NCBI GenBank assembly: GCA_003344405.1
Contig: NOWV01000010.1
Span: 744,001-808,000, forward strand
Direction: 5' to 3'
From: Trichoplax sp. H2
Lineage: Eukaryota
Length of the DNA: 64,000 bases
The translations under genes and the position numbers were made by a program. A model generated the notes under the pieces. The model searched no databases. It was not told the DNA's origin and saw only the letters and a list, made by a program, of their open reading frames with translations. Below are positions 6,001 through 63,888 of this stretch, piece by piece. Positions within the stretch are counted from its first letter, which is position 1. Each line of letters starts with the position of its first letter.

Positions 6001-6418
6001 AGCATATAGACTTGAGTACAATAAGGAAAATAGAAGAAGGTGGAATTTTTGAAAGACACTGTAGTTCAGGCTAACTTACCTGTTTAAGATCTAAAGTGAT
6101 GGTTACGTTATTATAGTCGAAACCATTTGTTAACGTTGGAGATTGCCACCATTTTTCTGTTCCGTCGATAGCATATCCTATTGGATGGCGTTGATTGCTT
6201 GGAGCATTAGCAGTATTATCGCAAGTTGAACAACTATCTGGCCGATCCAGTAGGCAAAAATTTTCCGGCCTATTAGTACCACATGTTGCGCTAGCAGCTA
6301 TAGAAGAAGACGTTGCTAAATCGCGAACGCTTGCATCTAAAATTTGTCCTTGTACTAACGACGCTGTTAAAGTTACTACTAAAATAATTGAAGAGATAAA
6401 CTGATCTACGGTTTTCAT
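58..6418 (-). CDS. LAMA1/2-like: Laminin alpha chain (alpha1/2-type), 5' part; multi-exon, continues past the left window edge
   Basis: ATG at 6418 gives a signal peptide ([24 protein letters not shown]). LN domain follows ([33 protein letters not shown]), then Cys-rich LE repeats, an L4/LamB domain ([10 protein letters not shown]...[16 protein letters not shown]) and further LE repeats. Introns checked are GT-AG. LN-LE-L4-LE order matches alpha1/2. Confidence 0.93.
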
Positions 6419-30646: not shown

Positions 30647-31236
30647 GTACATATCACTTTACTAGAACTGTAATCTGCTATGGCTACAATTTGATGTTAG
30701 AAGATTTTAACATTTTTACGCACAGAAAGTAATTGGAATATGTAGTATAAGTGAAATTAAAGTACGGTAGGTGGATTTGTTAATACTAACATCCTTGCAA
30801 TACAAACAGTATTATACTATGATATACGCCTAAATGATATAATTAGCAATTAGTACGACGCCGTATAGTCCAAAGGTCATTAGAGAACGATAAAGATGTC
30901 GCCTCTACTAGGCTAAAAGGAATGTTTTAACTTGGAAAATTTGGACAGGAAATTTTAAGTGCCCGCTCAAATTTAGTAAATAGTAAAATATTGCCTATTT
31001 TAAAACACGCACATGAGTATGTTGAGCTGATGCTGGCAAACAAATAGTAATCCTATAAATACTTTGAGTGTACAGCCTTCGATTGTAGGTGTTAAGAGAT
31101 TATCCCGTATGGTTATACTTTTTTAGATGTATTATACACTTGTTGCAATTGTCTATTAGAAATTTTCACTTTCTGGCAATCTTCCGAAAAAGTGTTAACT
31201 TCTATTTTAATTTTTTATGTATATAGATCTATCAAG

Positions 31237-32311
31237 ATGGCAGTTCATGCGGAAGCCTTTTCAAATAAGTTAGATTTTGAGCCTTACGGCTCTTACTACA
31301 TGGGTGAAGATAGTGAAGATGATAACATATGGAGTTGTCTTGACATCATGCCAACTCCACCATTGTCACCGGCTCGCCAGCAATACATAACTGATACTTC
31401 ATCAAATTATCTCGCTGACAAATTGTTGCAAGTAACCGAAAATTTAGATTTCGACAATGCCTTGATTGACATGGTAGGGGATACCAATAGTATTTTCAAT
31501 GGTGGTTCGAAACTTCGATCCAGCTTAATCCAGGATTGCATGTGGAATGCTGGCATTTGTGAAACCGACAAGAAGAATTTGGTTAACACGAACGTTAGTG
31601 CTTTTGATACGCCTTGTGCAACGCCACCGCGAGCAGAAGAGTTTATTTCGACTAGTGACTGTGTCGATCCCATCGCTGTATTTCCTTACACTCTTAGCGA
31701 TCAAGGACAACAACAATTTGTAGAAGCTCAGTCCGATTCAGGTATTGCTTTGAAATAATAGTATGTAACTCAAAAATTTTGTAGTATAGTTAGCCTTGTT
31801 TTTTATACTATTTTGATTGTCTGACGAGTTTACACTGTTTTTTTTTTTAGAAGAGGAAATTGATGTAGTAACAGTAGAAAAACCGAATAAACGAAAGCTA
31901 AGTTCCATTGAATTACCTCAGCAGCACAAAGTGACCGAAGATTTACAAAGCCCTACGAAACGTGCGAAATCTCCGCAAATAAGTACCAAAGGCAAAGAAG
32001 CTTGTAGCCCGAAGGGAGGGTTATCCGTAAAGCCGGATATTGATAATGATGTTAAACGTGCAACTCATAATGTTTTAGAGAGGAAGAGACGCAATGATCT
32101 GAGGTATAGTTTCCAGACGCTCCGTGATCAGATACCGGACTTGGAAGATAACGAACGTGCACCGAAAGTTAACATTTTAAAGAAGTCAACAGAGTACATC
32201 AAGTTCTTGAAAGAGGAGGAGAGTAAGCTAATCTCGATGAAAGAAACGGAAAGAGAAAGAAGGAAAGCTCTCTTGGCCAAAATCGACATTTTAAAGAGCA
32301 AAAGAAATTAG
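31237..32311 (+). CDS. MYC: Myc bHLH-LZ transcription factor; coding exons 31237-31741 and 31851-32311 (321 aa)
   Basis: MBI IWSCLDIMPTPPLSP, MBII LIQDCMWNAG, MBIII SDCVDPIAVFPY, acidic SDS|EEEIDVV split by the conserved intron, bHLH KRATHNVLERKRRNDLRYSF...APKVNILKKS plus zipper. Confidence 0.97.
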
Positions 32312-42022: not shown

Positions 42023-42125
42023 CTTGGAAGTTAAGAACGACGTACAAGCAATACACTGCCGCAAAAGGGATTCAATCACCGTGACTAAGGTCGTTTGTTG
42101 CATTGAGCATGAGCAGACCAGGCTC

Positions 42126-42989
42126 AAGTGCCTAACTACGAGCTACTGTACTGTACTGTCGAGTGAAGCTATCTACAGTACGACTCCTGTAGAGTACGGT
42201 ACTTAGTACGGTGCTGTTGGTGGAAAAGCTTACAACTGTACAGTACTGTACTGCAGTCTACACTGTAGTACATTAATACAATATTAGGTAAAAGTGGCTC
42301 CATTAACCTCATTTTAATCAATTCAATTAAAAGGCCAAGTTATTCAGTTTTCTATTCGTATAATTTTTATTACATTTTGATTGACTCTCGTCATTTTAGG
42401 GCACCTTAAAGTACTGTACGTACTGTACGGGAAGAAAGAAAAAAGATTTTACAGTACTATACTTACAGTGTACAGTACCCTACAGCGGCTCACAACTACT
42501 GTAGACAGTGGATTCTCCTTTTCGTAGACACGATTCATTTCAAGTCCCAGTCTGAAACGCTCTGATCCGTGCCGTCCGTGATCCATACCAGCCGTCAGCC
42601 AGTTCAAGAACTTTGTACTGTACGGTAAGTGCCTAGCTACTGTACTGTACTGTACTGTACTACTGTCGGGTGAAGCTATCTACAGTACCGCTCCCATCGA
42701 GTACAGTACTTAGTACGGTACTGTCGGTAGAAAAGCTTACAACTGTACAGTACAGTACTGTACAGTACTGTAGTACGGGAAGAAAGAAAAAAGATGTTAC
42801 AGTACTATGCTTACAGTGTACAGTACCCTACGGTGGCTCACAACTACTGTAGACCGTGGATTCTGCTTTTCGCAGACACGATTCATTTCCAGTCCCAGTC
42901 TGAAGCGTTCTGATCCGTAACGTTCCGATCCGTGCCGTCCGTGACCCGAACAAGCCGTCAGCCAGTTCGAGAACTTTGTACTGTACGGT
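42126..42989. repeat. Tandem duplication (copy 1 42126-42626, copy 2 42627-42989) in the PSMB2/ArfGAP1 divergent intergenic region
   Basis: Both copies start AAGTGCCTA, share blocks such as GTGAAGCTATCTACAGTAC, GGGAAGAAAGAAAAAAGAT and AGACACGATTCATTTC, and end GAACTTTGTACTGTACGGT. Copy 1 has an extra ~150 bp AT-rich segment. Confidence 0.93.
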
Positions 42990-43355
42990 ATCATACTGTA
43001 TGCAGATGGATGGTTTGACAGTATGGTACTGTACAGTACCAGCAGTCAAGGATTATGTCACAAGCTACTGCAACGAAGGGAACCGTAAGTCATCTGTCGC
43101 AGACGATCAATTCATTGAATAAAATCGCTCACCATTTTCGGATTTTTCATTGATTTTGCAATCATTTCATAGTTTCATAATTGTTACTATTGCATTTCCT
43201 CATCTACAACCAAGCAAACTCGACAACAAACGAGACTATCTGTTGTAATTAAGAGAAAGACAGAAGGAGTTGAGACTAGTTCTTGCAGGCCTTTTTAACA
43301 GCAACGAACCTATTAGTTTGGTTAAGCAGCAGCAGCCACTTTAGCACTATTTTTA

Positions 43356-46300
43356 ATGGCTAGTCCTCGAACACAGCGACTTTTAAGAGAATTACGCTTT
43401 AAAGATGATAACAATGTAAGTATTATAGCACTACTTGACACAACTACTTTGTACGACAGTTTCAATGATAGAGTTGCTGTATTTTTTCACTCATGGACAG
43501 ACCAAAGTCGATTTTGATCTTACGATTCCATAGTCACGATGAGGAAAGGTACGATGCTGCTCTACAGTACTGTATAGAGTACAGGTGACTAGCACCGACC
43601 TTGATTCTCCTTAAACTATTTATTTTTAGACACGCTGTTATCATTGAAGTTACATTATAGGATATTTGTAATCTCTATGACTAGTTTTCATTTATACCCT
43701 TTAGTGAGCTTGAGCGACAAATTAAAAAAAATTTCAAATTACATAGTGAACAATCGTTGTGGTCAATCTAGAGTACCGTAGTCGTCAGTCACAGACTTGT
43801 CATATCTTCAAGCCAATAATACTGTATAGTATAATGAATACTAACCATTGCAATACTTCGACATTACTAAACTGGATTTTCGATCGATCTGTATGTACTC
43901 GCATGATCGATGCTATACTTTGTATAAGAGTATGGTAGCACTGTATACCATATTGATCTGTAACTACTTCAAGTTTATTTTAACTTGAACCTTCACTATA
44001 AATATCCAGGACAATGTTGGTTAACAAACTTTCCATCGCTGACAGATGATACGATACTGCTGTTGTTTAGAATTTTAAATTTCAGTTCATCAGAGGGTAT
44101 AATAACTTTTACATTAATAACCTGAGCCTTAATCCTCTTTATCATCAAGTTAGTTATTGAATGACTTCAGTTAAGTATTCAATCATTTTTAAGTAAGACT
44201 GATGGGCGCTCTCGGATAACGATTAAATCTGACGCTTATCGCTTATACTGTAGGCTACTAGAAGTGTTAACGTACTACTTTATTGTACTATACAGTACAC
44301 CATATACATCAAAATCGCGAAATTGGTATCTACAATACTGTACTGTACTATCAGACAGTAACGTAAAGTTTACTACTTCAATCATAATTAATCCGATACT
44401 TGTAGAAATGCTCACGTTCCTCCTCATCACTACATCACTACATACCATATAATCATATAATGATGCTCCATTAATGCATCAGCAAATTAATTTAATTTAA
44501 TTTATTTAATCTGTCTTGCTATTGGTCTGTGTACATTTGCATAATTTAATTCCCGCGATACCTTATTCATTAATAGACATGTACTTGAGGTAACAAGGTA
44601 GTAATGTAAATATTATATATGAACATTAATTACAAAGTGGCTCGTAAATCTTCTCAAGATCTGCTTCAATATTACAAATGAAAATGCCGGATATACAATG
44701 GATATACAATATATGTAATACGTACGCAGTGTAGCCAGATTAGATAATTTTATACTACGAGTATACGCATATAAGTAAGGTACATTGGTATTCGCTTTCG
44801 TATGTTATATCAGCTACCTGATCATCGGTTGTAGTAATAATTTATTTGAAACGTAGCCATTTCTTCTTCCACACATATAGCTCAACTAACTTTATGGTGA
44901 TAACGATAGCTCTACCTGTATTATTCACTTTATCGTTCAGTCATACAGAAATTTGTAAATTTTTCTTTTCATTACTTGGATGTGATGAAGCAGCGATGAT
45001 GTAATCGATTTGTCCCGTGATTGACCATTGCATCTTAGCAATTGATATTAACATCCAATGAATAACGTAAATAATGTGTTTTCTTTCTTTTTGCATAGCT
45101 ATGTTTCGAATGCGGTGCTCACAGTCCTCAATGGGCCTCCGTTAGTTATGGCACATGGATCTGTTTAGAATGCTCTGGTAAACATCGAGGTCTTGGTGTT
45201 CATATCAGGTTCGATCTCAAGTTATCTTTACAATTGATAATTATTGACTTTCTACGACAGCTACAACTCTTTGCTACGTAAAAATTTTAGAAACGAAATT
45301 CTATTTAGCCAGTATGCTTACAATTTTGCTACCATCTTAAAGTTTTAAAATTAAATTTATTGCATCCATTAAAGTACTGTTTACATTATATAATATTCAT
45401 TTCTTAGGAAACGATAATTATATCTGTCTTGATAATTTATTGCACCAAATATCAAACTTCTGGAGCTCAATGGAACAATATTGTCATTACTCTCAATAGC
45501 TATATTTAGAATTGAGCATGATTAGCTAATTGCTAAGAAATTTAACAAATACTTAATTACGTATGCATATCGAATAGATATAGTTCAGTGACTATTTATA
45601 ATATTATCATCACAGAAAATAGATAAAAAGCATAAATATTATGTGTACCGATATTTCCAAGCAATGTGTACACTCTAATTCAAGCTGTTGCATTTTATTA
45701 CTTTCTTACTTCGCAATATCATAGTTAAAGAGAATATCTTATCCTATAATGCGAATCTTGAATTCATGTACAACTAACTTATTCGTAAATCAACTAGAAA
45801 TTTTTGCCATAAAAAATTAGTGAGCGTTATACCTATTAGTGTCAACAACGATCTGCAAAAGGATCATTTATTGAAATTGTTTGTCTCTTCTACACATTTT
45901 AGTTTTGTAAGATCAACTTCCATGGACAAGTGGAAGGATAAAGAATTAGCAAAGATGAGGGTAAGCTCACCATGTTTTGATAAATAATAGACTAATTCAT
46001 TAATACTAAAGTAGTAATTGTGATTAATACAATATTTTGTCACTCATAATAATATTGGATACTCGATACTGCTTTACTAAACAAACACGTCGTTTTTGGC
46101 TGCAACCATAAATAGTATTTAGATTTTGTATCGTTTTATTAATTTTAGTAATTGATATTCTAAAAAGCTATAAGAATTATTAAGATATCGTTCTAAATAA
46201 ATAAATCTTTTTAATGATCGTTTCGAAAGCACTTTAACATCGTCGTAATTATTAATACATAAGAGTGCCAATAGTCTACTCCCATTCCATGTATATATAG

Positions 46301-47641
46301 CAACCGTCACAGCTGATATTAGACCGTATTACCACAGTTCATTGTAAGAAATGGTATATCTGTAAAGAGCTACGACAAATAGTAGCTCAATGATATTTAC
46401 TTATAAATACAATTTCGCAGTTAAACATTTTAACTTATCTATTAATTGAGATTTTTTTCGGTTAATTTCGTAAAATTATCATATATTCAAATATATAAAA
46501 GACTGGCGGAAACCGACAAGCCAAGGAATTTTTTAAATCTCAGGGTGATATTTATGATGGAATCAATATAAAAGAAAAATACCAATCTAGGACAGCTGCA
46601 CTATATCGTGATAAGATCGCTACTTTAGCAGATGGTCGTACTTGGTCAATGGAAGCTTCACCTGCGTTTAATTATGAACCACCGAAAGAGACAGCATCTA
46701 TTGATCCTAGGCTAGGTATCTCGAATGAAGAAATTGCTAATAAACGTGACGATTTCTTTCGCAGAAAGCAAGAAGAAAACTCTCAAAAATCAAATGATCT
46801 ACCACCTAGCCAAGGAGGACGTTACGTCGGATTTGGATCTAAAAAGGAGGTTCCCAACAACGCTAATAAAAACGAATTTATAGATAACGCTTGGTCAAGT
46901 TTTTCATCGGGCTGGACCTCATTTACTGCAGGAGCTTCTAAATTTGGTGGTGTTGTACAAGATCAAGCTGTAAAGTTTGGCTCATCTATCAATGATAGCG
47001 TTTTCAAACCTGTTGGTGAGAAAGCTAAGGAATTTGGGACAACTTTCGATCAAACTGTAGTCAAACCAACCAAGCAAAAGATTAATGATTCTAAAATACT
47101 CGACAATATGTCAACATCTATGACTACATTTGCAACAAAAATAAAAACTGCTGGCGAAAGTGGAATGACTGAAATACAAACTTTAATGAAGGGGAAACAA
47201 AGGGAAGAAGTAAATACTGAGGGAATGGACAACGATCATGATCCATATGATGATGATGTCTTGACAGAGGAAACGAAAAATTTTAGTATTGAAGACGATG
47301 GAGGCGATGAATGGAACTCTTGGGGTAAATATGACGGCTGGGGACAGCCTAATTCTGAAAATAAGCAGTATTCATCAAAATTTGACGTACAAACTTCAGA
47401 TCAACCTGATACAAAAGCTACTCATACATCGACGAAAAAGGTACAAGCAGATAGTGAGTGGAATGAGTTTGTGATAGGATCTAGATCTACGGCTAAGCAA
47501 ACTGACGCTAAAGATAAGAAGGATGATAATAGTGGCTGGAATGATGATTGGGATGCAATGCTAAATTCGGATACCGACGTTAGTAGTGCTGGTATGAAAT
47601 TAAAAACTGATACGAAAGTAGTTTCAAAAAAATCAGAATAG
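43356..47641 (+). CDS. ARFGAP1: ADP-ribosylation factor GTPase-activating protein 1; exons ~43356-43415, 45099-45208, 45903-45960, 46502-47641
   Basis: [14 protein letters not shown]; Zn finger [57 protein letters not shown]-like [20 protein letters not shown]; acidic Trp motifs in the tail. Confidence 0.96.
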
Positions 47642-49656
47642 GCATAATTCTATAGCTAAATGTAGCTATATAAGCAATGATGATTGATGAAAGTATATTT
47701 TAACTCGCATTGCTGCTTTATAAGCCGGATATAGTTCTGTATTAATATTATATTTTTTCGATAGAAGAGAATTTATCTTTACACTCTATGCTAAACGTAT
47801 TTAGTTAAAGTGTACTTATTGACCCTATTTACAGCTGTGATCAAATATCATACTTTTACCATCAAATACACTACAATAACTTTACTTTTATTGGCTTAAA
47901 TGGAAATGCCGTCAAATGAAATTAATCATGAAATGCCTAAATGTCTTTCATCAATTAATATATATGTATGTACTCATTAATTGATCATTAATTGATTTCT
48001 GAAATAATTGATAAACTGAATTATGAATTAGAATTTGGTGTAATATTATAGATATCAAACTAGATAAGGTAGATTCTTACGAGATACCGCTAGTTATTAT
48101 CACCATTATTTGGGTATAAATGTAACCCTGGCTTTTTAAAATTGCTTAAAGTGGGCATTGTCAGATGACAGGTTTGATCAATGCTGTAATAGCCACGCTC
48201 TGAGAGTTATCATTTGATATGGTATACTTGTTCTATATTCTCTAATGAAATTACTGGAATCTGGATACTCGTTTATTAAATTTGGTTAGAGAATATAGAT
48301 TTACTACGTTTTATAACCTCGATACTATAGAACCGACGAAGCTTGCTTATCCAATACAGTAGGGCAAGTATAGGACAATTATGTTAACATAGAATTAAAG
48401 TACAGTTTCAATTGACATAGAAGCAAAATTGGATTAAAAATTTTAAAATTTTACACTATTGTCTTGTGTGGTATTATCCGTATTGTAGTTGTGTATCGTA
48501 CGCGCTGAAGTAGCGAAACTTATTCAAATAGTTCTTACGTTCAAATTTTCAGCAAGAATAATCGATATACGACATAGATTTTGGTAATAGTAATCACGAC
48601 TTATATAACATTTTTGCTTATGATTATATTTGGAATTAAAATCGCATATTTTATTGCTCGGAAATATGTAGTCAAAAAATTGAAGATTATTTCGTAACTT
48701 ATAGCACTTAATGTGATTGATTGCATAACGAATTTACGTGTCGCGCAAGCGTAAGTGCAATAAATCGCTATTCGGTATATATCAATCATCAGATACAGCA
48801 GTTCTGCGTAGTCTTTATTCTATCAAATCGATTAAATTTTAATACAAACTACAGCAGATGACTACATTTTATAATTTCAGACGCTTATATTAGTTTAAAT
48901 TGGAATAGAGAAAATTTACTTTAAACGTTCTTTATTTACAGTTTGCTTAAAACGTTAAAAATTTCAGAAAAGCTATGTTATATGAGTATTTTGTATTAAG
49001 TTGCGATGACAGTGTATATATATTCTACGCAGTAGTACAATAAGCTACACTTTTCAAGCAGATTAAGTAGCAACAGCAAGTCGATCGATCAGAAGATTAA
49101 CTTATATAAATCTTGTACTAACTGTACTGATAGAAAACATAGTTCCAGCATTAACTCTATCACTGGATGACTTTCTACAGTGCTTTCATTAATTAAAGTT
49201 CACGGTACAGCAGTTATTAGAAATTAATGTCGTTAATTCACAAACCAATTAGAAACATATCAGAAATTTAGCTATATAAACAAATTATTTTCAAAATTTG
49301 TAGTTAAAATGTTTATATTGATTTTTGCTTATTAATATTAAAAACATTCTAAGTATCAAATTCTGAAATGACACAAATAATATGTTGATATTAAAGCTGT
49401 TGAAGTCTTTGAAGGTAAATAATTAACATTATAATCACCTTAATACCACAACACGATGGCAAAATACTACGATAGATGCAACCGTAGAAATGGGCTATTT
49501 TATGATGTTTGCGTATGGAAAATATTAAATTTTCTGCATGTGATTACGGATAATAATCTCTTATCTACAGCCTTTTTTGTCATTATTTTTGCAGTATTTT
49601 CTTATCCTAACTTCGATATTTTACCATATCTAATTGCACTGAAATATTTTATTCTT

Positions 49657-52600
49657 TTACCAATAAAACGATTTACTGATAAAACTAGTAACACTACTAA
49701 TCCAACCATTGCCATTTCCGTTGTTATCATCAATTCGTGCGACGGCTCCCTGTAAATATTAAGCAACAAGTTTATATTTATACTTCAAAAATATAGATCA
49801 TTATTATTAAGCTACAATGGTACACTTATTTGATAATTTGACTAAATACTACTTACATGTTATAAAAAATTTATCGATAGATATATTCATTTACACTAAC
49901 GTAACTCTTCTCTAATTATAATACGTATAACGTTTATTTACCTTTTGTATTGTTGTACTATCATCATCTTCTGGTAAATAATCTGGCATAGCATTCTATA
50001 CGATTAAAACAGAAACCTTAGAGTGCCGTCATGACTACTGTCATTAAATAAATAAAGATAATTATATTTAACAGTAAATTCAAGAAGCTAAGAAGACTCA
50101 TAATGTTTAAATGCAAATACGGCTAGCCTTACAAGAAGTAAAGGACTATACTAACAAATTATGCTCTTAATCTAGTCTTAAAGACTTGTCATTATAACTA
50201 CTTGCCTCCTTATCTTCTGATGAGGAAACAGGGCTGCTTCCAAAGGTTAAAAATATCTAATCGCAAAAAGGCAATTTAATCATCTATTAAAGTACTGACG
50301 GTGACGGTGAATCTTAAAATTTAGGCAAAAACTAGTAATAGCTATTGCATGCTACTAATGCTATACGCGTACATCTGTCTAGTATACAATAAAAAAAGGG
50401 TAATTGCATCAAAGGTAGACGCTAATACTAATATATAACACCAACAATCTTTTACCTCTTCTCCCATGTCATTTTTGACAATTTGTTGCGCCGTCATGGT
50501 CTTAGTTTCAGCAACAGCTTGGCATATTGTCTTAAATTATAAATAAGAAATAGTATGCTTATAATTGCTAGAACCTATAGTGGGAACTTTAGAATATCGT
50601 TAATGACTCTAACAGTATACTATAAAAATCTATATTGACAGTATTTGAAGAATATTTATCAATTAAAAATAATGTCAGTTGATAAAGTTTTACCTAACGA
50701 TGTACTAGCAACTGTAAAAAATAAAAAGCAATTTATGAAAATTTGCTAAGACTACAATTACAGACTATTAAACTGGCTGACTTTTGCAATTTAATAGTGT
50801 TATAGTTACGATAACTTAGCTTACCTCTATTTTAAGGTTTGGACGAGCTCGTAAGATGCAGCGTTTTTTGACTAAATCAAAAGTAAAACTTACTACTCCA
50901 GGAGTAGCAAGCAATCTCTGTTCACATTTAAATCTGCTAGCACTATCAGTTAAGCCAGAAATTTGCAATATTATTGTTCGTGCATTTTTATTTGCATTGC
51001 TTAGAAAATACTGTCCAGAAGTGGCACCGGCCCTACGACTGCGAGTATTCCTAAAATAAAGTATCAATATTTGTATAAAGAACAGTTAGAGCATCACTTA
51101 TATTCCATTTTTATTTATATTATTTTAAAATATGATTATAGTGTAATATATCTCGTAGACAAGTAATTGTTAAAGTAATCATTTCTACACTAGTCATATT
51201 AAACATAGCAGTAAAATTTCGATAACATAATGTAATATTGACCATACCTAGTGGTTGGGACTAATGTAGTATGAATTTCGCTAGCAAGCTGGCAAGCTTT
51301 CTGATCTTTGCTATAGATTTGATATTAATCACAAATTAAGAAGCATGTTATAAACAATTTTATTCAAAGTAAACCATATTAGCTTGTCAGAATATATCAA
51401 TGACTAAAGTACATCTTATCTGATGGATTTATATTATAATTGCCTCTAATTTACTATGTACAATATTTGTTTTGATTAAAAGATCGAGAAGAAAATACTT
51501 GATATGCTATTTCAGTTTTGTAATATTATAATCAGTTAAATCGCAATAGCAGAAAGAATTTATCTGTTTAAATTATGCCAATATAGGGCATCTTACTACT
51601 ATTTTATCCTACTTTAAGGAATGTTTGTTTGGTATTGGTTATCGTTCGGCAGTATATTATAATTTTATTTTTAATTCACACAACAACTGCAATTGAATGT
51701 TAGGCAGATATTAAGTGTACTCAAAATATTTCAAGTTCATGAAATATTTTAAATTGAAAAGGTTACTTTATTGGATACTTGCTACCACTGGGAATTGAAA
51801 AGTTAAAAAATTACAGTTGGATTCTAACATATCCTTGAATAATATCTCATATTACAAATAGTACGGGTATATAGATAAGGGTTGCAGGAGGTAGCAATAC
51901 TTGACAGCAAATTCTTACCTATTCATAATAGCTTTCAAGCTAACCAACATACCAATTTCACTTCTCATAGGAGTACGGTTAGATGGACATAGTGATAGAT
52001 AACGTAGTGCCTTCAATTTTAAATAAAGCATCCTTAGTGGATAATAATACTAGACGTCTATGGTTATACGTAGATTGTTGCAATTTAACCACTTAAGAGT
52101 ATAGTTTAGTACACCAAATTACTGAGGAGATATTGTGTAATAACGTAGACGTATCGTATTTTGTAAAAGAGTTATTATCACAAGATAAACAGATGAATTG
52201 AAACTCTTTAATAAACTGACCTACTGAAAGCAAAATTTCAAGTTTTTTACCATCATACATGTACGTTACAATACCCACCTCTAACGCCAATACTACTACA
52301 CGAGGATCATCGTTATCTAGAAATAAAACCAATCCTGGAAGGCATCCCTGATCCTAAATGCACGTAAATAATAAAAATAGTTCAAGTTGCATCAGTTAAG
52401 TCATTTTATAATTGAAAGAAAAATTTAAATTAGCATTGTTGATGTAACGAGTAAGTCATTTCAATCACTTGAAATCGCACAGGAATGTCGAGGATAAGAA
52501 CTGTAAGATAGTATTTGTATTTTTGATAGCAGCTACGCGACATCCGCGTGGCCTCCCATCATAACAGCATTCAACATGGGCAATTTGAAAGAGTAATAAC

Positions 52601-53453
52601 TGGGGTTATAGTCAATAACTTTACGTATTGCTCAATAGAGGGTGATAAAATTGAAACGAGTTAATATGCAGTATGGGAGCATGCAATGAGTACTATCTGG
52701 TTGTTACCATACAGTAGGAATTGATTACATTCGGGATTGATGAAGTTGCACGCAGGACTATGATGGATAAATGTAATTATTATTATTATTATTATTATTC
52801 AATGACATATTTAGTAATCCATGATAGTCTACTAACTATATGTACATTGGTGATTTTCGCTAGTAAATACTGTAAGAAGAGTTACAGACTCAAATCTTGA
52901 CACCTATAATACTCGCATAATTCTGACCTAATGGAAAATACTTCATGATATATGGGTATTCTACTGTGTAAGTATATGATATCTATATGTCTACTTGTAC
53001 AGTATGGTATATGCAGTATATGCAGTGTAGAGTGTTGACTATCCTCTGAATCAAATATCGCTGATTTACTTTAGAAGGAAAACTAATACAATTTTTACTT
53101 TGTTGTACATGTCCACAAGGCTGATGAATCTTAGCAGTATCCTACTACAAGCAATTTATAAAATATCGAGTAAAGTCTCTGCGGTGCTGGAGGACAGAAT
53201 ATACAGTTTCCTGTAGAGTATATCATTTTCAGAACGATTTGAATCATGACGAAACTCATGGACATCCTTTGTACCATAACATTGTATTGAACGGATTGAA
53301 TAAACTATTACAGAAACTATTTCTGGCATTATTTTTCAATATTGGTTCAATGGATACATTGTCAATGGTGAGTTTTACCTTTACAATTGCAACACGATTT
53401 TGCGGTTGTATTGCTAAATCTCGTAAATTTTTAGCCACAGTATATGCAGACAT
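49657..53453 (-). CDS. ARMC1: Armadillo repeat-containing protein 1
   Basis: MSAYTVAKNLRDLAIQPQNRVAIVK|DQGCLPGLVLFLDNDDPRVV, NRTPMRSEIGMLVSL, HMA-like ARTIILQISGL...PGVVSFTF, PDYLPEDD, C-terminus SFISKSFYW*. Confidence 0.94.
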
Positions 53454-53934
53454 GTTACTCCCACTTTGTTAATTTCCAATTTTTGAACTATCCAGTAGAA
53501 AATGCAGCGGATCCAGTCCAATACACGATAAAATAAGTCTTGATATTACAAGGTGAATAAAATAGATGATGTTTCCCTACTTGTCCCTTTCTACATTAAA
53601 GAAAAGAAATGATCGAGAGGAAAAGTTGAAATGCACATGAGAAGAACTTGAGGCAATTGGTGTATTGGTGGCAGGAGTCCAACGTAAACGGCGATGGAAA
53701 TTTCAAATTTTGGCACGTCCTGCTGTCTACAGTGGATAGTATCGTAAGGGATGAACTTTGTACCACTGTCTACAGTACAGTACAGTACAGTATGGGATTG
53801 TACACTGTAGCCTTACATCTCCTCTCTCTTCTATGGTACAGTATGAGTTGACTGAGGATCAAAGTGTGCGCGAGCTCAAGTCGTGTATTGTGTCGACTGT
53901 CCAGAGTCGAAAATTTGAAAGCCATCTAGCTTGT

Positions 53935-54484
53935 CTGATTGGCTCTAAATTAACGGTCGCTTTGATACAATAGCAAAAACAGCCAATCAGCGGATCCGCA
54001 GCAGATAGTCCTTTACAGTGTACAGTACAGCACAGTACAGTACAGTACGGTAAAGGTTTGCATTGTACTGTACTCTACTGTACTCTACTGTACAGTACAG
54101 TATAACGGCAAGATGGAGTAGTCCAGAACTTGCGTATTCTGTGCAAAATAACTGGCCACCCTTGATCGTCATCTTGACTACAGCGAGAGTACAGTACTCA
54201 TTACACTACAGCGCGTACTAGCCAATCCATGACAACTTATTTTGCACACGAGTACCGTAATACTGTACTGTAATGCCAGGTACTGTACATCGTCCATAAC
54301 TGGCGTCTTCTGTGCAAAGTGAGTTGTCACCCTTGATCGTCATCTTGACTACAACGACACTACAGTACTCATTATACTACAGCGCGTACTAGCCAATCCA
54401 TGACAACTTGTTTTGCACATGAGTACCCCAAGACTGTACTGTAATGCCGAGTACTGTACATTGTACACTCGCGGATATTTTGAA
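53935..54484. promoter_or_regulatory. Bidirectional promoter with four CCAAT boxes and a CDE/CHR-like element
   Basis: CTGATTGGCT (53935-53944) and its exact reverse complement AGCCAATCAG (53981-53990); CCAAT at 54222 and 54393; CGCGG-ATAT-TTTGAA at 54470-54484. Confidence 0.6.
54121..54462. repeat. Two tandem 171-bp units (54121-54291, 54292-54462) in the ARMC1/MTFR divergent promoter
   Basis: Shared CACCCTTGATCGTCATCTTGACTACA and ACTACAGCGCGTACTAGCCAATCCATGACAACTT at an exact 171-bp offset. Confidence 0.93.
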
Positions 54485-54722
54485 TTGTGCAAGATTCAAA
54501 CTGTTGCCAGCTCGCAATTGGAAAATTTCTCGTCTTGGCCATCATTTTTCGCCCCATTTCTTCCTTCTGTTGATAAAAAGAGCTCGATAAGACGATTAGT
54601 AAGATTTTTAGTCCATGCAATACGAACACTACTACAATCTTCTAGTGTGTAGTAGCCAATAAATTACTATTCTCCATTTTATTTGTCAATTTGATTGGGT
54701 CAAAATTCATGCTTACATCAAA

Positions 54723-57700
54723 ATGGCTTACGAATTATTCGGATTGCATTGGAATTTTGAAGTGAACCCTACTGAGGTAAATGAAGATAGCTTTCAACGT
54801 CTTTCCAACTGTATAGTACTTATTTAGTACGTTATCATAGCTGTCTTGAATTGTACAAGGAACTTATTTCACTTCTTTGACTAATTAATTCATGATGGCT
54901 TACCAATGGCTGTACGCACATTTCAAATTTCAATACAATTTTAAATTGAACCTAACTGTGGCCAATGAGGATTCATTTTACTGTAGTAATAGTGCTTGTA
55001 CTATATGACGACCATGGAGGATATTATCACAGCCTTCTTGTACTGTAGAATTGCATTAAACTGTTTCCTTGACCGATTACTGATGGCTTTATACTATATA
55101 TATATACTGGATGTGACATAGATGTATCCACTATTATCAATGATTCCTATTTCAGTCAAGTTTCAAATTCACGTCTACTGAGATAAGCCATGATTAATAT
55201 AGCAAGTAATAATAATAACTATAGGCTCTGTTCATTATGTGACCATCATTGAGTTGATCTATTAGTTGCATCGACATCTCATAAGATAACGTGCAATGGT
55301 GTTTCTTCTTGAAGTTCAGTTATGAGTATATATTGACGGATAAATACAAGATAGTACTCCACTCATTTCTACAGTACAGTATTAGCATCTCCTTGATACT
55401 AACATGCTATACGCCTACTCGAATTACTTCTATATTCTCGTTAATACCATATTGGATAACCTTGCAATAATATATTTTGTTTAAAATATAGTTACAGCTA
55501 CAGTATACTCAATGGTGATTGATGTTCTATTCCATAAAATATCTTGAAAATTTTTTTCTGTTATCTCTGCTTATCATTTTAGCCAAGGCCTCTATGGGAA
55601 TCGAACAAGAGATACTCGTCCCAATGTAATAAAAGCATCGTTCGCCAAATTGGTAGCCGATTACCTTTAAAGCCTCCAGATAGAACTCATTTTCAGGTAA
55701 GTTATGTCTGTATTATATATTAATTATTAGTCATGAATGAGTCTTGACGCCAATATATCACACAGTACTCCCCTATCCTATACAGTATACAGTATACTCA
55801 CTCGTACGATACAAAAGATACTACATGCAGCATTTATTGACAATATCCATCTTACCATTTGTCAATGTAATATGATATGAAAGAGCGAGTGTCAAGTCTG
55901 TCATTTGAATACGTCTATAAAAATTAAATTAAAATATCCCAAGTTTTTGTTGTTTTTTAATACGAATATTGATGAGACATTCGGATCCTATACCTGTTAA
56001 CTAGTGATGATAAATTTCTTTCAAAAAGGATTACTCATCAAAATCAATAGAAGGTAAAATAAAATAATATAATTGATTACTATTTTACCACTCTATTACT
56101 TTATAGCTATGCCCAGATGGTACTTCTACTATCGATGGCTTCTCTTCTCTCGCCCATCAAATGTTCACCAATGATGAAGAGAAATTAATGAATCCTACTG
56201 CTACTTTAGAAGATGTTGGTTGGTTATTTGAAGAAGTCGATGAAGATGTTGGCATAATGTGGAGATCATCAACACTACCGTTGGCATTATTTGGTACTGG
56301 ATTAGACGAGAAGGACTTAGGTAATCTAAGATCTGTTACAAATCCAATAAAGATTTAGCAATTTTAATATATTACGGAACACGAACAGACAAGGAGTCAT
56401 TAGACCTTAATCTTATTTAAAGTCACATCATCATTGTTAATGATTTATGTTTACTTACCCAAAAATTTAAGCAGGTAGCGAAAGCAATATTAAATGCATA
56501 ATACAATCACCAAGCCAAGCAATTCTTAAGAAATCCTCGTCACCTAATACGCAAAATCTTCGGAAAATTACTGCACTGGAAGATGAACTAGCTCGACTCA
56601 GGGAGCAAATTTCAGTTTTGGTAGTTAAGAATGATCCTATCGCTACTAATGACAACATTGCAAAATGTAAAGTATTATTTATCTGTCAAATAATGCATAA
56701 ATACATCAATTTCTAGTTAATATTTTTCGATGTTTTAATATAAACTACAGTTTATTAGTCTGTCATTAAGAAGAGTTTGTAACGAATAATGTGATTAATA
56801 TCAGTTTTCTTAATGTATCATTAGCTATACCTCATGCTACAGTTCCATTCACCGCTCCCGCGCCGCCACCACCACCACCCCCTCCACCGCCACCACCGCC
56901 GATGGCCAATGTAAAATTAATGCCATCAATAAAGTCTAAAACGAAGGTAATAAGCTTGATGAAAAGTAAAAATTGCAGTAAATTATAATAATTTTTTTAG
57001 ATTCTATGTTTACTATATGTATAATTGGCATAAAATAAAATATAATTAGCAAGAAGGGTCTTGCATGATAAATTTAGCCCATAGCCGTATACATGTACAC
57101 ATGTCAATAAGTGACGTTATATTATAGAATACTACTGGAAATACCTCTAATAATAATAATGAAAATAAGATGCCAACGATTAGAGATATCGTAAAGGATA
57201 TAGGTAAAGTCAAACTTCGACAAACACCAAGGTAAATATAAATATATCCCTTACCATATCAGTGCTCATTTTTTAAGTACAACCATGAAGTTACTATATT
57301 GCATGATTTACTAGATGATAAGCATTGCATTTTTCATTTCATAATTAACGCATACATTTTTATTCCGTACAAATACTATACTTGTAATACTTTTAGGTCT
57401 CCTGGAGGTACTCCGCTACACAGAAAGAAGCCTAAGACCAACCCTCAAGACCCTGCTTCCATTATTGCTGAAGCATTAAAAAAAAAATTTGCGAAGCAAA
57501 TGCAGACATCATGGCAAGAATCTCCTGGTATGATAAACAATTTGCAATTAACTGTAAATGCAACACTAACTTAATTAAATAAGGCATATTTTTAAATTAG
57601 ATTGCGAACCGTTTACTCGACAATGTGTTACAGTTATTGGATATTTGAATGGGAAAAATTGAATTTTTTTCTCTTACACTACAATTATCACGCGTACTGT

Positions 57701-58023
57701 CGTTAATTACTCATTAATGACTCGTATAATTAATTCTTCACCATAGTTTATTGTTAACAAACGAAACCATTTTTTTCAACTAAAATACAGATAAAGAGAA
57801 TCGATCTTCCTCATCTTTTCAAAGTAGCCCTAAAGCTTCTGAATATTGGTCAAAGGTATAACTATAATTAGATTAACTTGCAACCGAAAAAATTGTATTA
57901 ATACAAATACACGTTTATCGATTAACACTATCTTAGACCGGTGCAAGCCCAAGAGATTCTAAAAATCGCAGTAACTTGTCATTTAATAATCCGTCCTCAC
58001 CATTGGCTGTTAGAAATGTGTAG
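54723..58023 (+). CDS. MTFR1: Mitochondrial fission regulator family (MTFR1/MTFR2/MTFR1L) protein
   Basis: Exon 55583-55696 KSIVRQIGSRLPLKPPDRTHFQ; ATLEDVGWL; KITALEDELARLREQI; poly-Pro tract; RSPGGTP...DPASIIAEALKKKFA; stop 58021-58023. First exon (54723-54776) is less certain. Confidence 0.9.
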
Positions 58024-59200
58024 CCTGAGCCATGTAACACAAGACTGGACAAACGTAGATATTTACTAATTGTTAATCTTAAAAATTGGGTTACCTTGAT
58101 GAAATTTATGATAGCAACAACAAAGGAAAAGTCATAAAAATCTGTTGATGCAGTGTAGAACTTAGAGCTAAATAATAATGTAACAAATAGCAATGAATGA
58201 TTTCGGTATATATGTACGTAGAACGGATGCTTTGGTTGCAGGTTAAGTGATTGGTTGACTATTCAGTTTTCTATTTCAAATTTAAATTCTACAATACGAT
58301 AATTAGTGCTAAATGCCGAGTATGTTTATGTTAATATAATTATTCCGAATTCCGTCTTTAAATGCAACATATCACTACCAATCGAGCACTTGCTAACTTG
58401 AGGGTTGATAAAAACGATAGCTTGGTTGCGGTGTTCCTAAGATACTACAGCTCATTGAGCATTTTGTACAAAGAAATTAATTTAAACAAGTACGCCTGTT
58501 GTAGCAACACAATGATATATAGTTATTGCGATATTAAAATACTGCATCAAAATTTTTAATAAATGTAAATTTGTACATGCTAAGATGACAGAATCATGCA
58601 TTTTACTTCAAATGACCAATTTGAATAATTCAACGTTGGTACAAAAAGAATAGTTATTACTGTATATATATGCTCGATTTACTTTATTAAATTATTTATT
58701 TTATTTTATTTTATTTGTATCCGATCAGTTATTACACTAATTAATCTCACGAGTCCTTGTGTAGGTATTTGCACCATTTATTGCCCCTCATATACGAGTA
58801 TATCCATACCTCATCCACCTATTATCCTATGAGAACTTATCAGTGACACGCTAAAGGAGTCTTCCTCTCTTTTTTAATACTCTGTGTTATACGTAAATAA
58901 TCATTTATCGCAGTTTTAATACGTTAGATTAAATTTTTTAATTTTATAGACTGCTTAATATGGTATGAGCTATAGAAGAAATGTATCTAGTCCGACTCTG
59001 CCTTGCACATGCATTTTCATATTAAACAGTCAGTACATTAATAGATAAGAATAATCCATACCGTAATGTTCACATTCATACAATAACTTTCTAAATTTAA
59101 CTATATCAGGTTGGGCACCAAAGTGCAAATGATTCAATTCGATTTTTAGAAAGATAAATTAATGAACAAGTAACGTAGGAAGCGGTGCGGTTTTATTTCG

Positions 59201-59204
<4 letters not shown>

Positions 59205-59230
<26 letters not shown>
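59205..59230. repeat. (AT)n microsatellite
   Basis: About 13 AT units. Similar short tracts: (AT)n near 63571-63588, (ATT)n near 52776-52799 and 59567-59582. Confidence 0.9.
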
Positions 59231-59234
<4 letters not shown>

Positions 59235-60405
59235 GGTATTTTCTAAATTACAATAACTTATTAACTAAAAAACGATACCAAGTCAGTGGTTTAGTTTTAT
59301 CAATTATCTGACATAATGGAAACTTTCTTCGAAATTCTCGAAAAGCACCAAAATTTTTTAAATCGAAGTAAATCATTGCATAATTGTCAACATACAAGAT
59401 AATCGAAAATAATAACGCGTTGCTCAAGGTACATTTTAGTCAGATAAAATACTACAGTCGAAAACAAAATACAGTAGATCGCGTCAGAAACCTAACAGAT
59501 GCTAACGCTACCTGGTGCATATTCAAATTTTTAAGTTTACATATATTATTTAGTAATCAGATAATAATTATTATTATTATTATAAAACGAAAATCAGTAT
59601 AAAGCAAAAATTTATCAACCGGATCGGTATAATAAAATTAGGTTCTGTCTACAAAAAAGTGACAGCAATCTAAATAAACTGTTTAGTTGCATCAATATTT
59701 ATCAGTTTATAATAACAACCTAAAATGTATCTGTTTTAAAAATTTAATACAGACAGTATAAAAGGTAAAACGGCATTTTTATGAACAGTAATAACAAAAG
59801 CACAACTATAATTTTGATTTCATATCTATCTATCGTTGAGAAGGGGTGTCGAAAGAAATCTTATATAACAAAAATCAATAGTGGTATGTTAAAAATTGTT
59901 GCAAAGGTATTTCGGTTCGTTTTGTAGTACTAAACAAAATGACATTGACATATTTATAGTACTGTATATATCAACAGTAACACCAATAAAGAACACTGTA
60001 ATAAAATAGAACTTTGAGTGAAGATAAAGTTTATCGAATTTAACTTAATTGGTAAAACGTTACATGTCAGCCTTATTCCTAAAAAGTTCTGACCTGATCG
60101 ATAGTTTTGATTAACTCATTAGATAAGGAGTGAATTATCAAACAAAGATAAGAAATGGTAAAAATTGAACGAAAAAAATAAAACATCGAACAGACAAACA
60201 ATCTATAAAAATTGTAAATTAATTTAATAATGTTAATTAATACTATAATGTGGACTCTGTCTATCTAGTACGGAAAAATTTATAATGCACACTTGGAGTG
60301 AAATTGTGTCTGGTGGTATTGGTATCTAAAAACATTGGCAGATTGATTGACGGAGCAAATATTGTTACATCGGGTATTATTCTCCATCCATAGGAAAGAA
60401 CTATT

Positions 60406-63400
60406 CTAATTTTTTTCACTTTTGACAACTTTGTCCCATTTCACTAAGTTATCGTTCATATTTTCCAGCATCATATCACATAGAGGTGTATGTAAAAAGT
60501 CTGACCAACAGCTAAATAACGGCCTTGCCACATATTGGTAAAATCCTTTCAAAAATAACAAGTATCAATAGAAAAAATTTACGGATACAGCATCTATAAA
60601 TTTAAAGATTTGACCCAGTATAGATTTCATACATATCTTTCAATATTTAACTTATTTATAAGCTGTATCTCGACAATCAGGTATACTGTACTAACCAACT
60701 TGAATATCAGCAGTTGTATGCTTAGTGTCGTCAAAAAGTGGAGAAATTTCAATACCAAGTTCCTTTTCCTTGTTACCTGTAAACGCGTAACAGAATATTT
60801 ATTTAAATAATTTGCAACAAAACGAAAACATGGCATTTCATATAAGAGGATACCCCCCACCTTGATCGAAAAATTCTGATGTAACTCTTTTACTCCATCG
60901 CGAACATAGATGCCATGATCTACAAGGATTACTTATGTCTGCACACTTTAATGCAATCTGTAGCATTAAGGTCTTATGATCATGGTTATTGATATTGAAG
61001 GTGTCGTTATCTACAAGTAACTGAAATTGAAACAAGCGTGTGGCATTATAATGACTTCAAGTAAAATAAATAAATACAACTGACTGAAAAATCAGGTTAT
61101 CATAGTCATTTTTCTCAACTTGACATATGTATTTAGATTAGTAACAGCTTGTATTGTATGCTTTTAAGCATGTCAGCTACCTTAAATTTGGATAGATATT
61201 CTTGCTGTTTAGCCATATCAGTTGATAAAATCAACGCAACAATTTGATCTTCAATAAATCGCCTACCAAAATATAGTACCAGTGCACCATATAATAAAAA
61301 ATTTTTATTATCGATAACAAAAATATATCTCATGCACTACGTAGCTAACTAATTTATCACTAAAATCAATAAATTTACCGCTGGCTACTTGGTAAGTGTT
61401 CGATAACACCAGAGTCTCTCAGTAGAGCGATAGCAGCACGACAATGATGATTTTCCAGGACAGATATAACCTATGGATTAATTCATATATACATACAAAC
61501 TGAGAAAAAATATTAGTAAAACTAATCCAATAAAGGGGGACTTACCCCGAATATTTTGGGTAGAAAATGTGAAGTTGCGATTAAGAAATTTTGATTAACT
61601 CCTAATGTGACCAGCATTAAAGCAGACATTATAAAGTTATCTTTAAGTGTAATGGCATATTTGAATAATAGCAGAATATATTCATTGATAGATATGTCAC
61701 CTGGATGGTCAATATCATGCAAAAGTGCAGCTAGTAATGAATAGAATATTTCGATTTCGCTTAAGGAATCGGCAATCTATTAATAAAATTAAATGTAATC
61801 CTTTATCATGGAAATTGACAACGTCCTCAATCTAGAAAAAACTCCCTTATCCCTGAATTATATGAGAGGCTAATGACAATACGAATTTCCAATATCAAAA
61901 ATTTATCGCATTTAAAAGCGCAACATTACACCGTAAGAAATGCAAGTCTATAGGGTAAGATTTCACCTTGGCCTCCAATAGATAGCAATGTACTGCTTGA
62001 GTGACATCTGCAGCGTGAGTGGAATTGTGAAATGGATTTCTTCGATGGTATGATTCTTCGATAAGTTCTAGGATGAGAATAAATACGATTAATTGAAATT
62101 GCGCCAATAAAAAGTTCTCGTATAGAATGATAAAAATTTTAAATCACACTTTAAGTAGCCAATTGAACGTAGAATATATAATACCATGTAACATCTAATA
62201 TAAATGATTCGATAACGTGCGATTAATTATTGTGTCATATAATACTTACTACATAATCGCATCAATTTAAGAACGTCCAAATCAAGCGTAGCAATTAAGT
62301 TATGTTTTTGAAATAGATGCATGGCAAGATTAAATAGCGGATGACCTATTTTAAAAATATTACATTGAGGTATAAAGAGAAAGTTAATTGATATGTACGA
62401 TGTTGTAAAGAATAAGTAATTACAAATTATAAAGTAAGTTAGATGAGTACGTAAGATTTAATATTAATACATAATTGTCTACAATTCTTAATATGGCTGT
62501 GTAAAGATTTTACTATGTGAGACAGCATAGCCTACCTCATAGCCCTAAATTATAGACAATGATTTTATTAGAAAGGATCGTGTAAAATAATCCCTTATGC
62601 AACCCTCATTAGTACATGATAAGAAGAAAATACTCATCGATCGGTTATGTATGCACTAGCTTATCAGAAACTAATTTGCCTACAGTAGGTTTCAACCCAT
62701 TAGGTCTATATTTACTATACGGTATATGGTTGCTATCAAGTGTTTCCTAAATAACTGAATCAATGTTATTAAGCCTCCCTATGGGTATAAATATCGATGT
62801 AGCGATTAGCTTATACTAATTCACTAAATGGAAAGACTCATTATACCAAGGACCTCAAATATCCAATGAATTATCAAAGATCTCATACCGTACAAGAAAG
62901 TCCGAAATTATCAATAAATTATAAACACAGGCATTTCTATATTGCCATATTGTATAAATAACTTTGTTCATGTATGTATATGTACACTTTTAATACTACA
63001 ATTTAATCTCTACCACTAATAATGTTACGGGGTATAATTAACCATGAGATGGTCTAGCAACTAATGAAAGGATATCAATCATTGCACTAATTTGAACTCT
63101 TTCTGAAGTTAATAAAACTAACGCAATACTACAAGAGTATCATAATGTTAAAATATTGGCTAATTATCATAATTACAATCATCAAACAAAAACTAAAGCA
63201 CTGCTTAATGCGTCAACCAAAGATCGAATAATTGAAACAACAAGACTACATTATGAAATAATCACTAAATCATACCTCAGTATATCAAAAGCTATTATGC
63301 CCTAAGGTATATGGGCATAAATTTAAAGTATACGAGTCAGTAAAGCCTATACTATCAAATATTAACGTTATCCGTACAGAACAAAGCCTAAATAGCGAAA

Positions 63401-63888
63401 TATCGCATAAAGAGAAAAAGTTTAAATCCATAACTATGAAAAATATTTAAGTTTATGTATATAGGTCTCTAGTATCAAGTCACACTAGTCTATGATAAAA
63501 TAAAAGAAAAATTTTACTGTTTTATTTATTGTTTACAGAAATACTTCTGATCTATTATCAATCGATATAGATATATATATATATATATCATGAAATTTAC
63601 TAGCTATTTATATATTTATAGAGATAATATGTAAAAATGCGTAGAGTACCAGTTTTAGCCTAAGTATATCGTTAAGAAATGAGAAAATTTTGCAGGGTGT
63701 GTGTACCTTGCACAGATGTGAATTAGAATTATAGTAATTTAGAAAACCTTCATTCTTTTACGGTAAACTAAATAAGGAAACGAATTGGTAATATTACCCT
63801 GATTTAGAATAGCATATTTCTTACCTCTTGTTACTAAATCCAGTTTTATTGTATCAAATTCCCATTCGTCGGCATTATCTAATAACAT
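60406..63888 (-). CDS. PDE7: Class I cyclic nucleotide phosphodiesterase, PDE7-like; 3' part, starts beyond the right window edge
   Basis: [75 protein letters not shown]; stop 60406-60408. The neighbourhood with MTFR supports PDE7. Confidence 0.9.

What the first reader, a model, noticed from the sequence alone, without database searches (positions are those of the whole stretch)
49657..63888. ARMC1-MTFR-PDE7 triplet with vertebrate order and orientation: an ancient mitochondrial gene pair
Seen: ARMC1 (-) head-to-head with MTFR (+), which is tail-to-tail with PDE7 (-). Established (from memory): human ARMC1-MTFR1-PDE7A at 8q13 have this arrangement, MTFR2 neighbours PDE7B on 6q23, and ARMC1 is reported to associate with MTFR and MIRO proteins at the outer mitochondrial membrane. 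Inference: two subunits of one complex have been co-transcribed from a bidirectional promoter since early animal evolution, an operon-like module.
Basis: partly seen in the sequence, partly recalled or inferred. Interest (0 to 1): 0.7.

Follow-up and report, generated by a model that had tools for sequence, protein, structure and literature searches.

The report
Ancient head-to-head mitochondrial partner genes
In a placozoan, one of the simplest animals, the genes for two proteins that work together on mitochondria in human cells (ARMC1 and MTFR) sit back to back less than a kilobase apart, a neighbourhood also kept in corals, molluscs and cattle; it is a real and very old gene pair of a kind already known, and the third gene (PDE7) looks like a passenger.

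Summary
ARMC1 (-, 9 coding exons), MTFR (+, 9) and a PDE7-type gene (-) are intact and spliced in transcript contigs; the ARMC1 and MTFR 5' ends lie at most 817 bp apart. The conserved core is the pair, not the triplet. Six of six anthozoan genomic loci with ARMC1 carry MTFR head-to-head, 301-324 nt between start codons, with two conserved CCAAT boxes. One also has ARFGAP1 tail-to-tail, as in this window. A published table (PMC8851819, block 7418) already lists ARMC1 with MTFR in 8 species, ARFGAP1 in 5, PDE7 in none, and dates the block to the cnidarian-bilaterian ancestor; this window makes it older. Human ARMC1 stabilises MTFR (PMC11980836), and both genes were lost in the same insects and nematode (PMC2656531). 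'Operon-like co-transcription' is wrong (opposite strands, separate transcripts), the human pair is absent from a list of <1 kb divergent pairs, and co-expression was not tested. Verdict: a new, well-motivated example of a known kind (conserved divergent pair, like HSPD1-HSPE1). The scan had no earlier finding on it.

The parts
49657..53453 (-). ARMC1, coding exons 53379-53453, 52279-52353, 51919-52010, 51248-51310, 50825-51050, 50456-50530, 50206-50256 (GC donor), 49942-49995, 49657-49749; 267 aa; armadillo repeat, HMA-like domain, C-terminal tryptophan
   Evidence: a transcript contig holds 636 letters between first and last exon, equal to exons 2-8 of this model
53454..53683 (-). ARMC1 5' untranslated region, as far as a contig covers it (a lower bound)
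   Evidence: run X11 record 1
53684..54500 (.). 817-bp gap between the two covered 5' ends; GC 43% against about 32% around it, 31 CpG, 4 CCAAT boxes (1.7 expected from the window average), and a pentamer-rich element also found elsewhere; candidate shared promoter
54501..54722 (+). MTFR 5' untranslated region, as far as contigs cover it (ends at 54501, 54514, 54539 in three runs)
54723..58023 (+). MTFR (mitochondrial fission regulator), coding exons 54723-54776, 55583-55696, 56107-56320, 56475-56666, 56825-56946, 57128-57231, 57397-57527, 57791-57855, 57937-58023; 360 aa with a polyproline tract; 3' end covered to 58580
60406..63888 (-). PDE7-type phosphodiesterase, catalytic-domain exons 63825-63888, 62250-62345, 61967-62067, 61701-61776, 61546-61601, 61379-61470, 61181-61262, 60861-61020, 60696-60776, 60406-60545; 3' end covered to 59242; gene continues beyond the window
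43356..47641 (+).
   Evidence: same position and orientation in L029; in 5 of 8 species of block 7418. The name rests on the zinc-finger exon read by eye and on that table, not on a family scan

Best explanation
ARMC1 and MTFR are a divergent gene pair that was already adjacent in the common ancestor of placozoans, cnidarians and bilaterians. They are transcribed as two separate mRNAs from one short upstream region (shown: arrangement, splicing, gap of at most 817 bp here and about 310 nt between start codons in anthozoans; inferred: that the same elements, probably CCAAT boxes, drive both). The pair stays together for two reasons that add up: a break in so short a region would damage both promoters, and linked output is useful because MTFR without ARMC1 is degraded (shown in human cells, inferred for placozoans). 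ARFGAP1 and PDE7 are old neighbours carried along, each lost from the block in different lineages.
For: Adjacent and divergent in the window and in 6 of 6 anthozoan genomic loci among the 29 loci fetched (L020 and L021 are 99% identical and all six are close kin, so one lineage). Two CCAAT boxes 31 bp apart are kept in 5 of 5 aligned anthozoan gaps while flanks vary. Contig L008 runs across the whole gap with both genes spliced. Block 7418 of PMC8851819 holds both genes in 8 of 8 species, against ARFGAP1 5, CSPP1 2, TAF2 2, PDE7 0. Cattle order ARMC1, MTFR1, PDE7A. Human ARMC1 is a dedicated MTFR assembly factor and orphan MTFR goes to the proteasome (PMC11980836). Of the three ARMC1 residues that paper places at the MTFR interface, D37 and D49 are invariant in 21 of 21 aligned sequences, D27 only in 10 of 21 and not in the placozoan. 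Both genes are among the 30 that honey bee shares with vertebrates and that flies, mosquitoes, beetle, silkworm and C. elegans lack (PMC2656531). Predicted complex of placozoan ARMC1 with a snail MTFR: weak support, 0.36 against best control 0.02, runs agree in at least 24% of contacts, partner pLDDT 39-42; passes at 0.60 or under were 5 of 78 true complexes and all 4 passing mismatches of 180.
Against: No co-expression or promoter test was possible. Divergent pairs under 1 kb are common in compact genomes (almost a third of sponge genes, PMC4773876), and the window holds a second one with the same gap. The placozoan and anthozoan gaps share no similarity beyond chance-level short words. The human pair is not among 864 pairs under 1 kb. 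Human ARMC1 serves all three MTFR paralogues and control acts at the protein level, so linkage is not required for function there. D37 and D49 equivalents are also present in a non-animal ARMC1 with no MTFR within 10 kb upstream (L030), so their conservation is not specific to MTFR binding. A large survey reports that most stable close pairs show no co-regulation (PMC13508932).
Confidence: 0.55

Rival explanations
1. Promoter entanglement only: the two genes share or overlap their promoter region, so rearrangements between them are harmful, but matching the two proteins' amounts plays no part; that they are partners is history (they met early) rather than the reason they stay.
For: Very short gap in anthozoans and transcripts that cover it; 3' ends of ARMC1 and ARFGAP1 also abut or overlap (one contig spans both); human control is post-translational and covers unlinked paralogues; human pair no longer under 1 kb.
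Against: About a third of genes in compact animal genomes are in such pairs, yet only 595 unrelated pairs passed a cross-phylum survey (PMC3514665), so a shared promoter alone seldom holds; the pair that held here happens to be a binding pair; joint loss.
Confidence: 0.3
2. Passive residue: the placozoan genome has been reshuffled slowly and a whole ancestral stretch (ARFGAP1-ARMC1-MTFR-PDE7) survives without any constraint.
For: Four genes in a row have old neighbours elsewhere; CSPP1, a block member in two cnidarians, is still on the same cattle chromosome arm a megabase or two away. This is the likely account for PDE7 and perhaps ARFGAP1.
Against: The ARMC1-MTFR link is kept in 8 of 8 block species across four phyla plus cattle while the flanking genes turn over.
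Confidence: 0.1
3. A three-gene functional unit in which PDE7 (cAMP breakdown) is co-regulated with the mitochondrial pair, or its introns hold enhancers for them.
For: Same order in the placozoan and cattle; PDE7A and PDE7B lie in the duplicated regions 8q13 and 6q23 (PMC3575645).
Against: No PDE7 among the 30 rows of block 7418 and no 'pde7' in the stored part of that table; in Nematostella and Aurelia CSPP1 is the listed neighbour; PDE7 faces MTFR tail-to-tail and shares no promoter.
Confidence: 0.05

Closest known systems
Microsyntenic block 7418, 'Planulozoa novel' (Robert et al. 2022, PMC8851819, supplementary file 4)
   Same: Same genes: ARMC1 and MTFR in 8 species (Aurelia, Nematostella, Exaiptasia, Acropora, Crassostrea, Euprymna, Lingula, Saccoglossus), ARFGAP1 in 5.
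   Different: The rows seen hold no placozoan and no vertebrate, give no orientation or distance and no PDE7; the file was cut when stored. The window shows ARFGAP1-ARMC1-MTFR in a placozoan, so the block is older than that label. I did not search that paper's main text for these gene names.
Conserved ancestral microsyntenic pairs (Irimia et al. 2012, PMC3514665), e.g. HSPE1-HSPD1 and HADHA-HADHB
   Same: Unrelated neighbours kept across phyla, mostly 5'-5' (54.8% against 26.7% of controls in human), some encoding partners in mitochondria.
   Different: HSPE1-HSPD1 and HADHA-HADHB are under 1 kb apart in human and highly co-expressed; ARMC1-MTFR1 is not in that <1 kb list. Whether it is among the 595 pairs is unknown: the supplement could not be read.
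Human ARMC1-MIRO-MTFR-TMEM11 complex (McKenna et al. 2025, PMC11980836)
   Same: Same two protein families; interface aspartates D37 and D49, acidic-linker E243 and the final tryptophan are kept in the placozoan.
   Different: That work is on mammalian cells; its main text has no occurrence of 'synten' or 'adjacent'. D27 is not kept in the placozoan. One MTFR gene here against three in human.

Membership tests
Conserved ancestral microsyntenic pair (Irimia 2012) | [quoted passage not shown] | tested here: met
   Placozoan (window), anthozoans on DNA, cnidarians, molluscs, brachiopod and hemichordate in a published table that allows up to five intervening genes, cattle gene list
Conserved ancestral microsyntenic pair, co-regulated type | 5'-5' orientation conserved | tested here: inconclusive
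   Shown for the placozoan and 6 of 6 anthozoan loci; no strand data seen for bilaterians (human orientation recalled)
Conserved ancestral microsyntenic pair, co-regulated type | Correlated expression above matched neighbours | not testable with these tools
   Only assembled contigs were available; their depth cannot rank genes
Conserved ancestral microsyntenic pair, co-regulated type | Conserved intergenic sequence | tested here: inconclusive
   Two CCAAT boxes kept in 5 of 5 anthozoan gaps; no alignable similarity between placozoan and anthozoan gaps
Bidirectional promoter (divergent starts under 1 kb) | Start sites less than 1 kb apart in this genome | tested here: met
   Covered 5' ends at 53683 and 54501, gap at most 817 bp; contigs bound the starts but do not map them
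   No ARMC1 or MTFR1 row among 864 analysed human pairs; HSPD1 and HADHA rows present. The list is not exhaustive
Bidirectional promoter (divergent starts under 1 kb) | One set of elements drives both directions | not testable with these tools
   Needs reporter or start-site data
Operon | One polycistronic transcript from same-strand genes | tested here: not met
   Opposite strands; separate spliced contigs in the placozoan runs
ARMC1 | Armadillo helical domain, HMA-like domain, short C-terminal tail ending in tryptophan | tested here: met
   Weak Arm and HMA hits below cut-off on single exons, 44-51% identity to 20 ARMC1 proteins and invariant final W
MTFR (PF05308) | Mito_fiss_reg profile above the curated cut-off | tested here: met
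   32.2 and 30.7 bits against 26.3 on two exons
PDE7 | Catalytic domain closer to PDE7 than to PDE4 or PDE8 | tested here: met
   One 53-aa exon: PDE7A 52.9 bits, PDE8A 39.3, PDE4 about 29; a second, 33-aa exon gave no hit
PDE7 | Placement in the PDE7 clade of a tree | not tested
   No PDE reference set was fetched

The most novel reading that the evidence does not exclude
MTFR was recruited in early animals directly at the promoter of an older ARMC1 gene (ARMC1 exists in a non-animal eukaryote with other neighbours; MTFR was seen only in animals here), and the two have been held since as an assembly-factor and client cassette whose shared CCAAT promoter matches synthesis of the unstable client to its stabiliser. 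Gene order would then have predicted the ARMC1-MTFR complex before it was found biochemically, and other unexplained ancient divergent pairs would be candidates for such dedicated assembly relationships.
Probability: 0.2. Interest if true: 0.7.

Novelty: new member of a known kind. Interest (0 to 1): 0.4.

Why it matters
It joins two facts that I did not find joined in print (searches; main text of PMC11980836): an ancient gene neighbourhood that sits unremarked in a synteny table, and a recently described assembly-factor and client relationship at the mitochondrial surface. It moves the block back to the placozoan-cnidarian-bilaterian ancestor and offers a compact promoter (about 310 nt between start codons in anthozoans) on which shared control can be tested directly. 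It is not a new kind of system: conserved divergent pairs of mitochondrial partners are known.

Tried and rejected
Search of related genomes: none held for this genome, so synteny was read from metagenome contigs and papers. Accession-number adjacency as a proxy for synteny: ARMC1 accessions were obtained for 9 proteins but two searches with MTFR exons returned only 2 and 3 proteins, none from the same species and no full-length placozoan MTFR; dropped. Of 29 loci, 14 were intronless transcript contigs (1 also held MTFR), 5 vertebrate-like by eye and 2 others had too little upstream DNA to be informative, 2 were from a non-animal eukaryote; only 6 tested the pair in animals. L029 ends about 780 bp past MTFR, so it says nothing on PDE7. 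Contig depth was not used as expression. A short exon at 63266-63301 was tried in the PDE model and rejected (stops in all frames), as was an extra MTFR exon near 55960. PDE 5' exons were not found by listing frames over 28 kb beyond the window. A non-ATG extension of MTFR upstream of 54723 was not supported by comparison with the anthozoan N-terminus. Supplements: Irimia 2012 unreadable; Davila Lopez 2010 (PMC2871058), 6 files, 0 hits for 6 names, though the files may use other identifiers; PMC7601430 supplement 0 hits; PMC11980836 supplement gave no interface detail; table S17 of PMC13508932 was not looked at and may list the pair. Earlier scan findings: nothing relevant.

Full report
What is there. 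The window is AT-rich animal DNA from a placozoan: an ARMC1 exon is identical to a Trichoplax record. Exon models built by coordinates give three open frames. ARMC1 lies on the minus strand from 53453 to 49657, 267 aa in 9 exons, one intron with a GC donor. MTFR lies on the plus strand from 54723 to 58023, 360 aa in 9 exons, with two exons above the Pfam PF05308 cut-off. A phosphodiesterase lies on the minus strand from beyond the window to 60406; one exon matches PDE7A better than PDE8A or PDE4, another matched nothing, and no tree was built. ARMC1 and MTFR were found only at this place in the genome.

Expression. Contigs of four runs from four studies were laid on the region (one is on record as RNA, three are guessed, and X4 behaves like DNA). 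All 8 MTFR introns and 7 of 9 modelled PDE introns appear among the joints shown; 24 joints were not shown. One ARMC1 contig holds 636 letters between first and last exon, exactly exons 2-8 of my model, so the 17-aa exon with the GC donor is used although the deposited 250-aa protein lacks it. ARMC1 is covered up to 53683 and MTFR down to 54501, so at most 817 bp separate them. The two genes are on separate contigs and opposite strands: this is not an operon. The gap is richer in GC and has 4 CCAAT boxes against 1.7 expected, a weak excess.

Is it more than chance? Orientation alone is not. PSMB2 and ARFGAP1 in the same window are divergent with a 1264-bp gap against 1269 bp for ARMC1-MTFR, and almost a third of genes in a compact sponge genome are in such pairs (PMC4773876, passages). 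The test is conservation. A scan of metagenome contigs with an ARMC1 alignment gave 29 loci. Six genomic loci, anthozoan by the tree position of matching transcripts (support 87/78 with Nematostella, 93/92 for the wider group), all carry MTFR head-to-head. They are close kin and count as one lineage. Start codons are 301-324 nt apart and two CCAAT boxes 31 bp apart are kept in the 5 distinct gaps. Transcript contig L008 crosses the whole gap with both genes spliced, which fits starts that overlap or nearly touch, though an assembler can also join through unspliced reads. L029 continues ARMC1 then ARFGAP1 tail-to-tail, as in the window. Two loci from a GC-rich non-animal eukaryote hold a full ARMC1; in the one with 10 kb upstream the neighbours are ankyrin and DENN-myotubularin genes and no MTFR is detected. 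The remaining 21 loci (13 other transcripts, L008 counted above as a transcript, and 7 short genomic pieces) add nothing on linkage.

What is in print. Supplementary file 4 of PMC8851819 (rows found by search; file cut when stored) lists block 7418 with ARMC1 and MTFR in 8 species of cnidarians, molluscs, a brachiopod and a hemichordate, ARFGAP1 in 5, CSPP1 in 2, TAF2 in 2 and no PDE7. It is labelled as new in the cnidarian-bilaterian ancestor; Trichoplax was in that study's species set but has no row. The window has three of the block's genes in a row, so the block is older. My two searches found no full-length placozoan MTFR record, so a missing gene model is a possible reason; this is inference. 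Two cattle papers (passages) give the order ARMC1, MTFR1, PDE7A and positions 31.70-31.72 and 31.80-31.91 Mb. Strand orientation in vertebrates and the MTFR2-PDE7B adjacency are recalled only; PMC3575645 (passages) places PDE7A and PDE7B at 8q13 and 6q23. The human pair is not among 864 divergent pairs under 1 kb (PMC3815023, supplement search and passages). PMC3514665 (passages) defines the class, 595 unrelated pairs, mostly 5'-5', with HSPE1-HSPD1 and HADHA-HADHB as examples; its tables could not be read. PMC2871058 supplements gave no hit. PMC13508932 (passages) does not name these genes in its main text and says most stable close pairs show no co-regulation.

How it most likely works. PMC11980836 (abstract, section 10 and passages) shows in mammalian cells that ARMC1 assembles MTFR with MIRO, that MTFR is degraded without it, and that D27, D37 and D49 lie at the modelled interface. 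Mapped through a 282-aa mammalian sequence, D37, D49, E243 and W282 are invariant in 21 of 21 aligned proteins and D27 is kept in 10 of 21, not in the placozoan. The non-animal ARMC1 has the same two aspartates, so they do not prove MTFR binding. A fold of placozoan ARMC1 with a snail MTFR, a stand-in from another species, gave weak support: 0.36 against 0.02 for the best control, at least 24% contact agreement, partner pLDDT 39-42, a range where passes are more often wrong than right unless likely beforehand. PMC2656531 (section 5) lists both genes among 30 kept in honey bee and vertebrates and missing from dipterans, beetle, silkworm and C. elegans, which fits joint loss of a module but would also follow from one deletion of neighbours or from fast divergence. 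My reading: a short shared promoter locks the two genes together and linked output suits a client that needs its stabiliser (0.55). Entanglement without functional coupling is the main rival (0.3), since human control is at the protein level, covers unlinked paralogues and no longer uses a <1 kb gap. Passive residue (0.1) probably explains PDE7; a three-gene unit is unlikely (0.05).

Novelty. The class is known and the block is catalogued. What I did not find in print is the link between the neighbourhood and the complex, the short divergent spacing, or the placozoan occurrence. Unread supplements may already list the pair. Interest 0.4.

Noticed in passing
window 50206-50256 (-): ARMC1 exon with a GC donor, missing from the deposited 250-aa Trichoplax protein P0001; its 17 residues fill a gap seen in the alignment.
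   Followed up: yes
window 54723-58023 (+): No full-length placozoan MTFR protein turned up in two searches although the gene is intact and spliced; it may be unannotated or mis-modelled.
   Followed up: partly
window 42091-43356: PSMB2-like (-) and ARFGAP1 (+) form a second divergent pair with a 1264-bp gap, no CCAAT box and the same pentamer-rich element.
   Followed up: partly
window about 29000, 34000-36000, 42000, 54000-56000 and three places beyond the window: GC-richer stretches dense in one pentamer and its complement (9 of 92 one-kb bins with 10 or more, median 4); many unrelated contigs share it (loose ends). It looks like a genome-wide element near gene starts; not identified.
   Followed up: partly
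window 54227-54409 and the anthozoan gaps of L020, L025, L026, L028: A short word beside the CCAAT boxes recurs in both lineages (chance-level scores) and recalls half an RFX X-box (recalled, not tested). Window 54110-54450 is also a local duplication of about 170 bp.
   Followed up: no
window 47641-49657: The 3' ends of ARFGAP1 and ARMC1 abut or overlap: one contig of run X11 spans both, two other runs leave gaps of about 250 and 630 bp.
   Followed up: partly
window 31096-32311 (+): Two-exon Myc gene (Myc_N and HLH hits). Also in the window: a laminin chain at 1-6517 (-) and a tRNA isopentenyltransferase-like exon near 19000 (-). Human MYCL and TRIT1 are neighbours (recalled), so Myc-TRIT1 may be another old linkage.
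   Followed up: no
L030 10001-11338 and L027: Full-architecture ARMC1 in a GC-rich non-animal eukaryote (amoeba-like by impression, not tested), sharing the first intron position with the placozoan and anthozoan genes: ARMC1 predates animals.
   Followed up: partly
P0125 (snail MTFR): The atlas lists proline-rich protein 11 at score 0.90 behind MTFR clusters, a lead for a distant relationship; recognition value was below the tool's bar.
   Followed up: no
window 54616-54722 (+): The MTFR leader holds upstream ATGs, one opening a 15-codon frame that stops 60 nt before the main start.
   Followed up: partly
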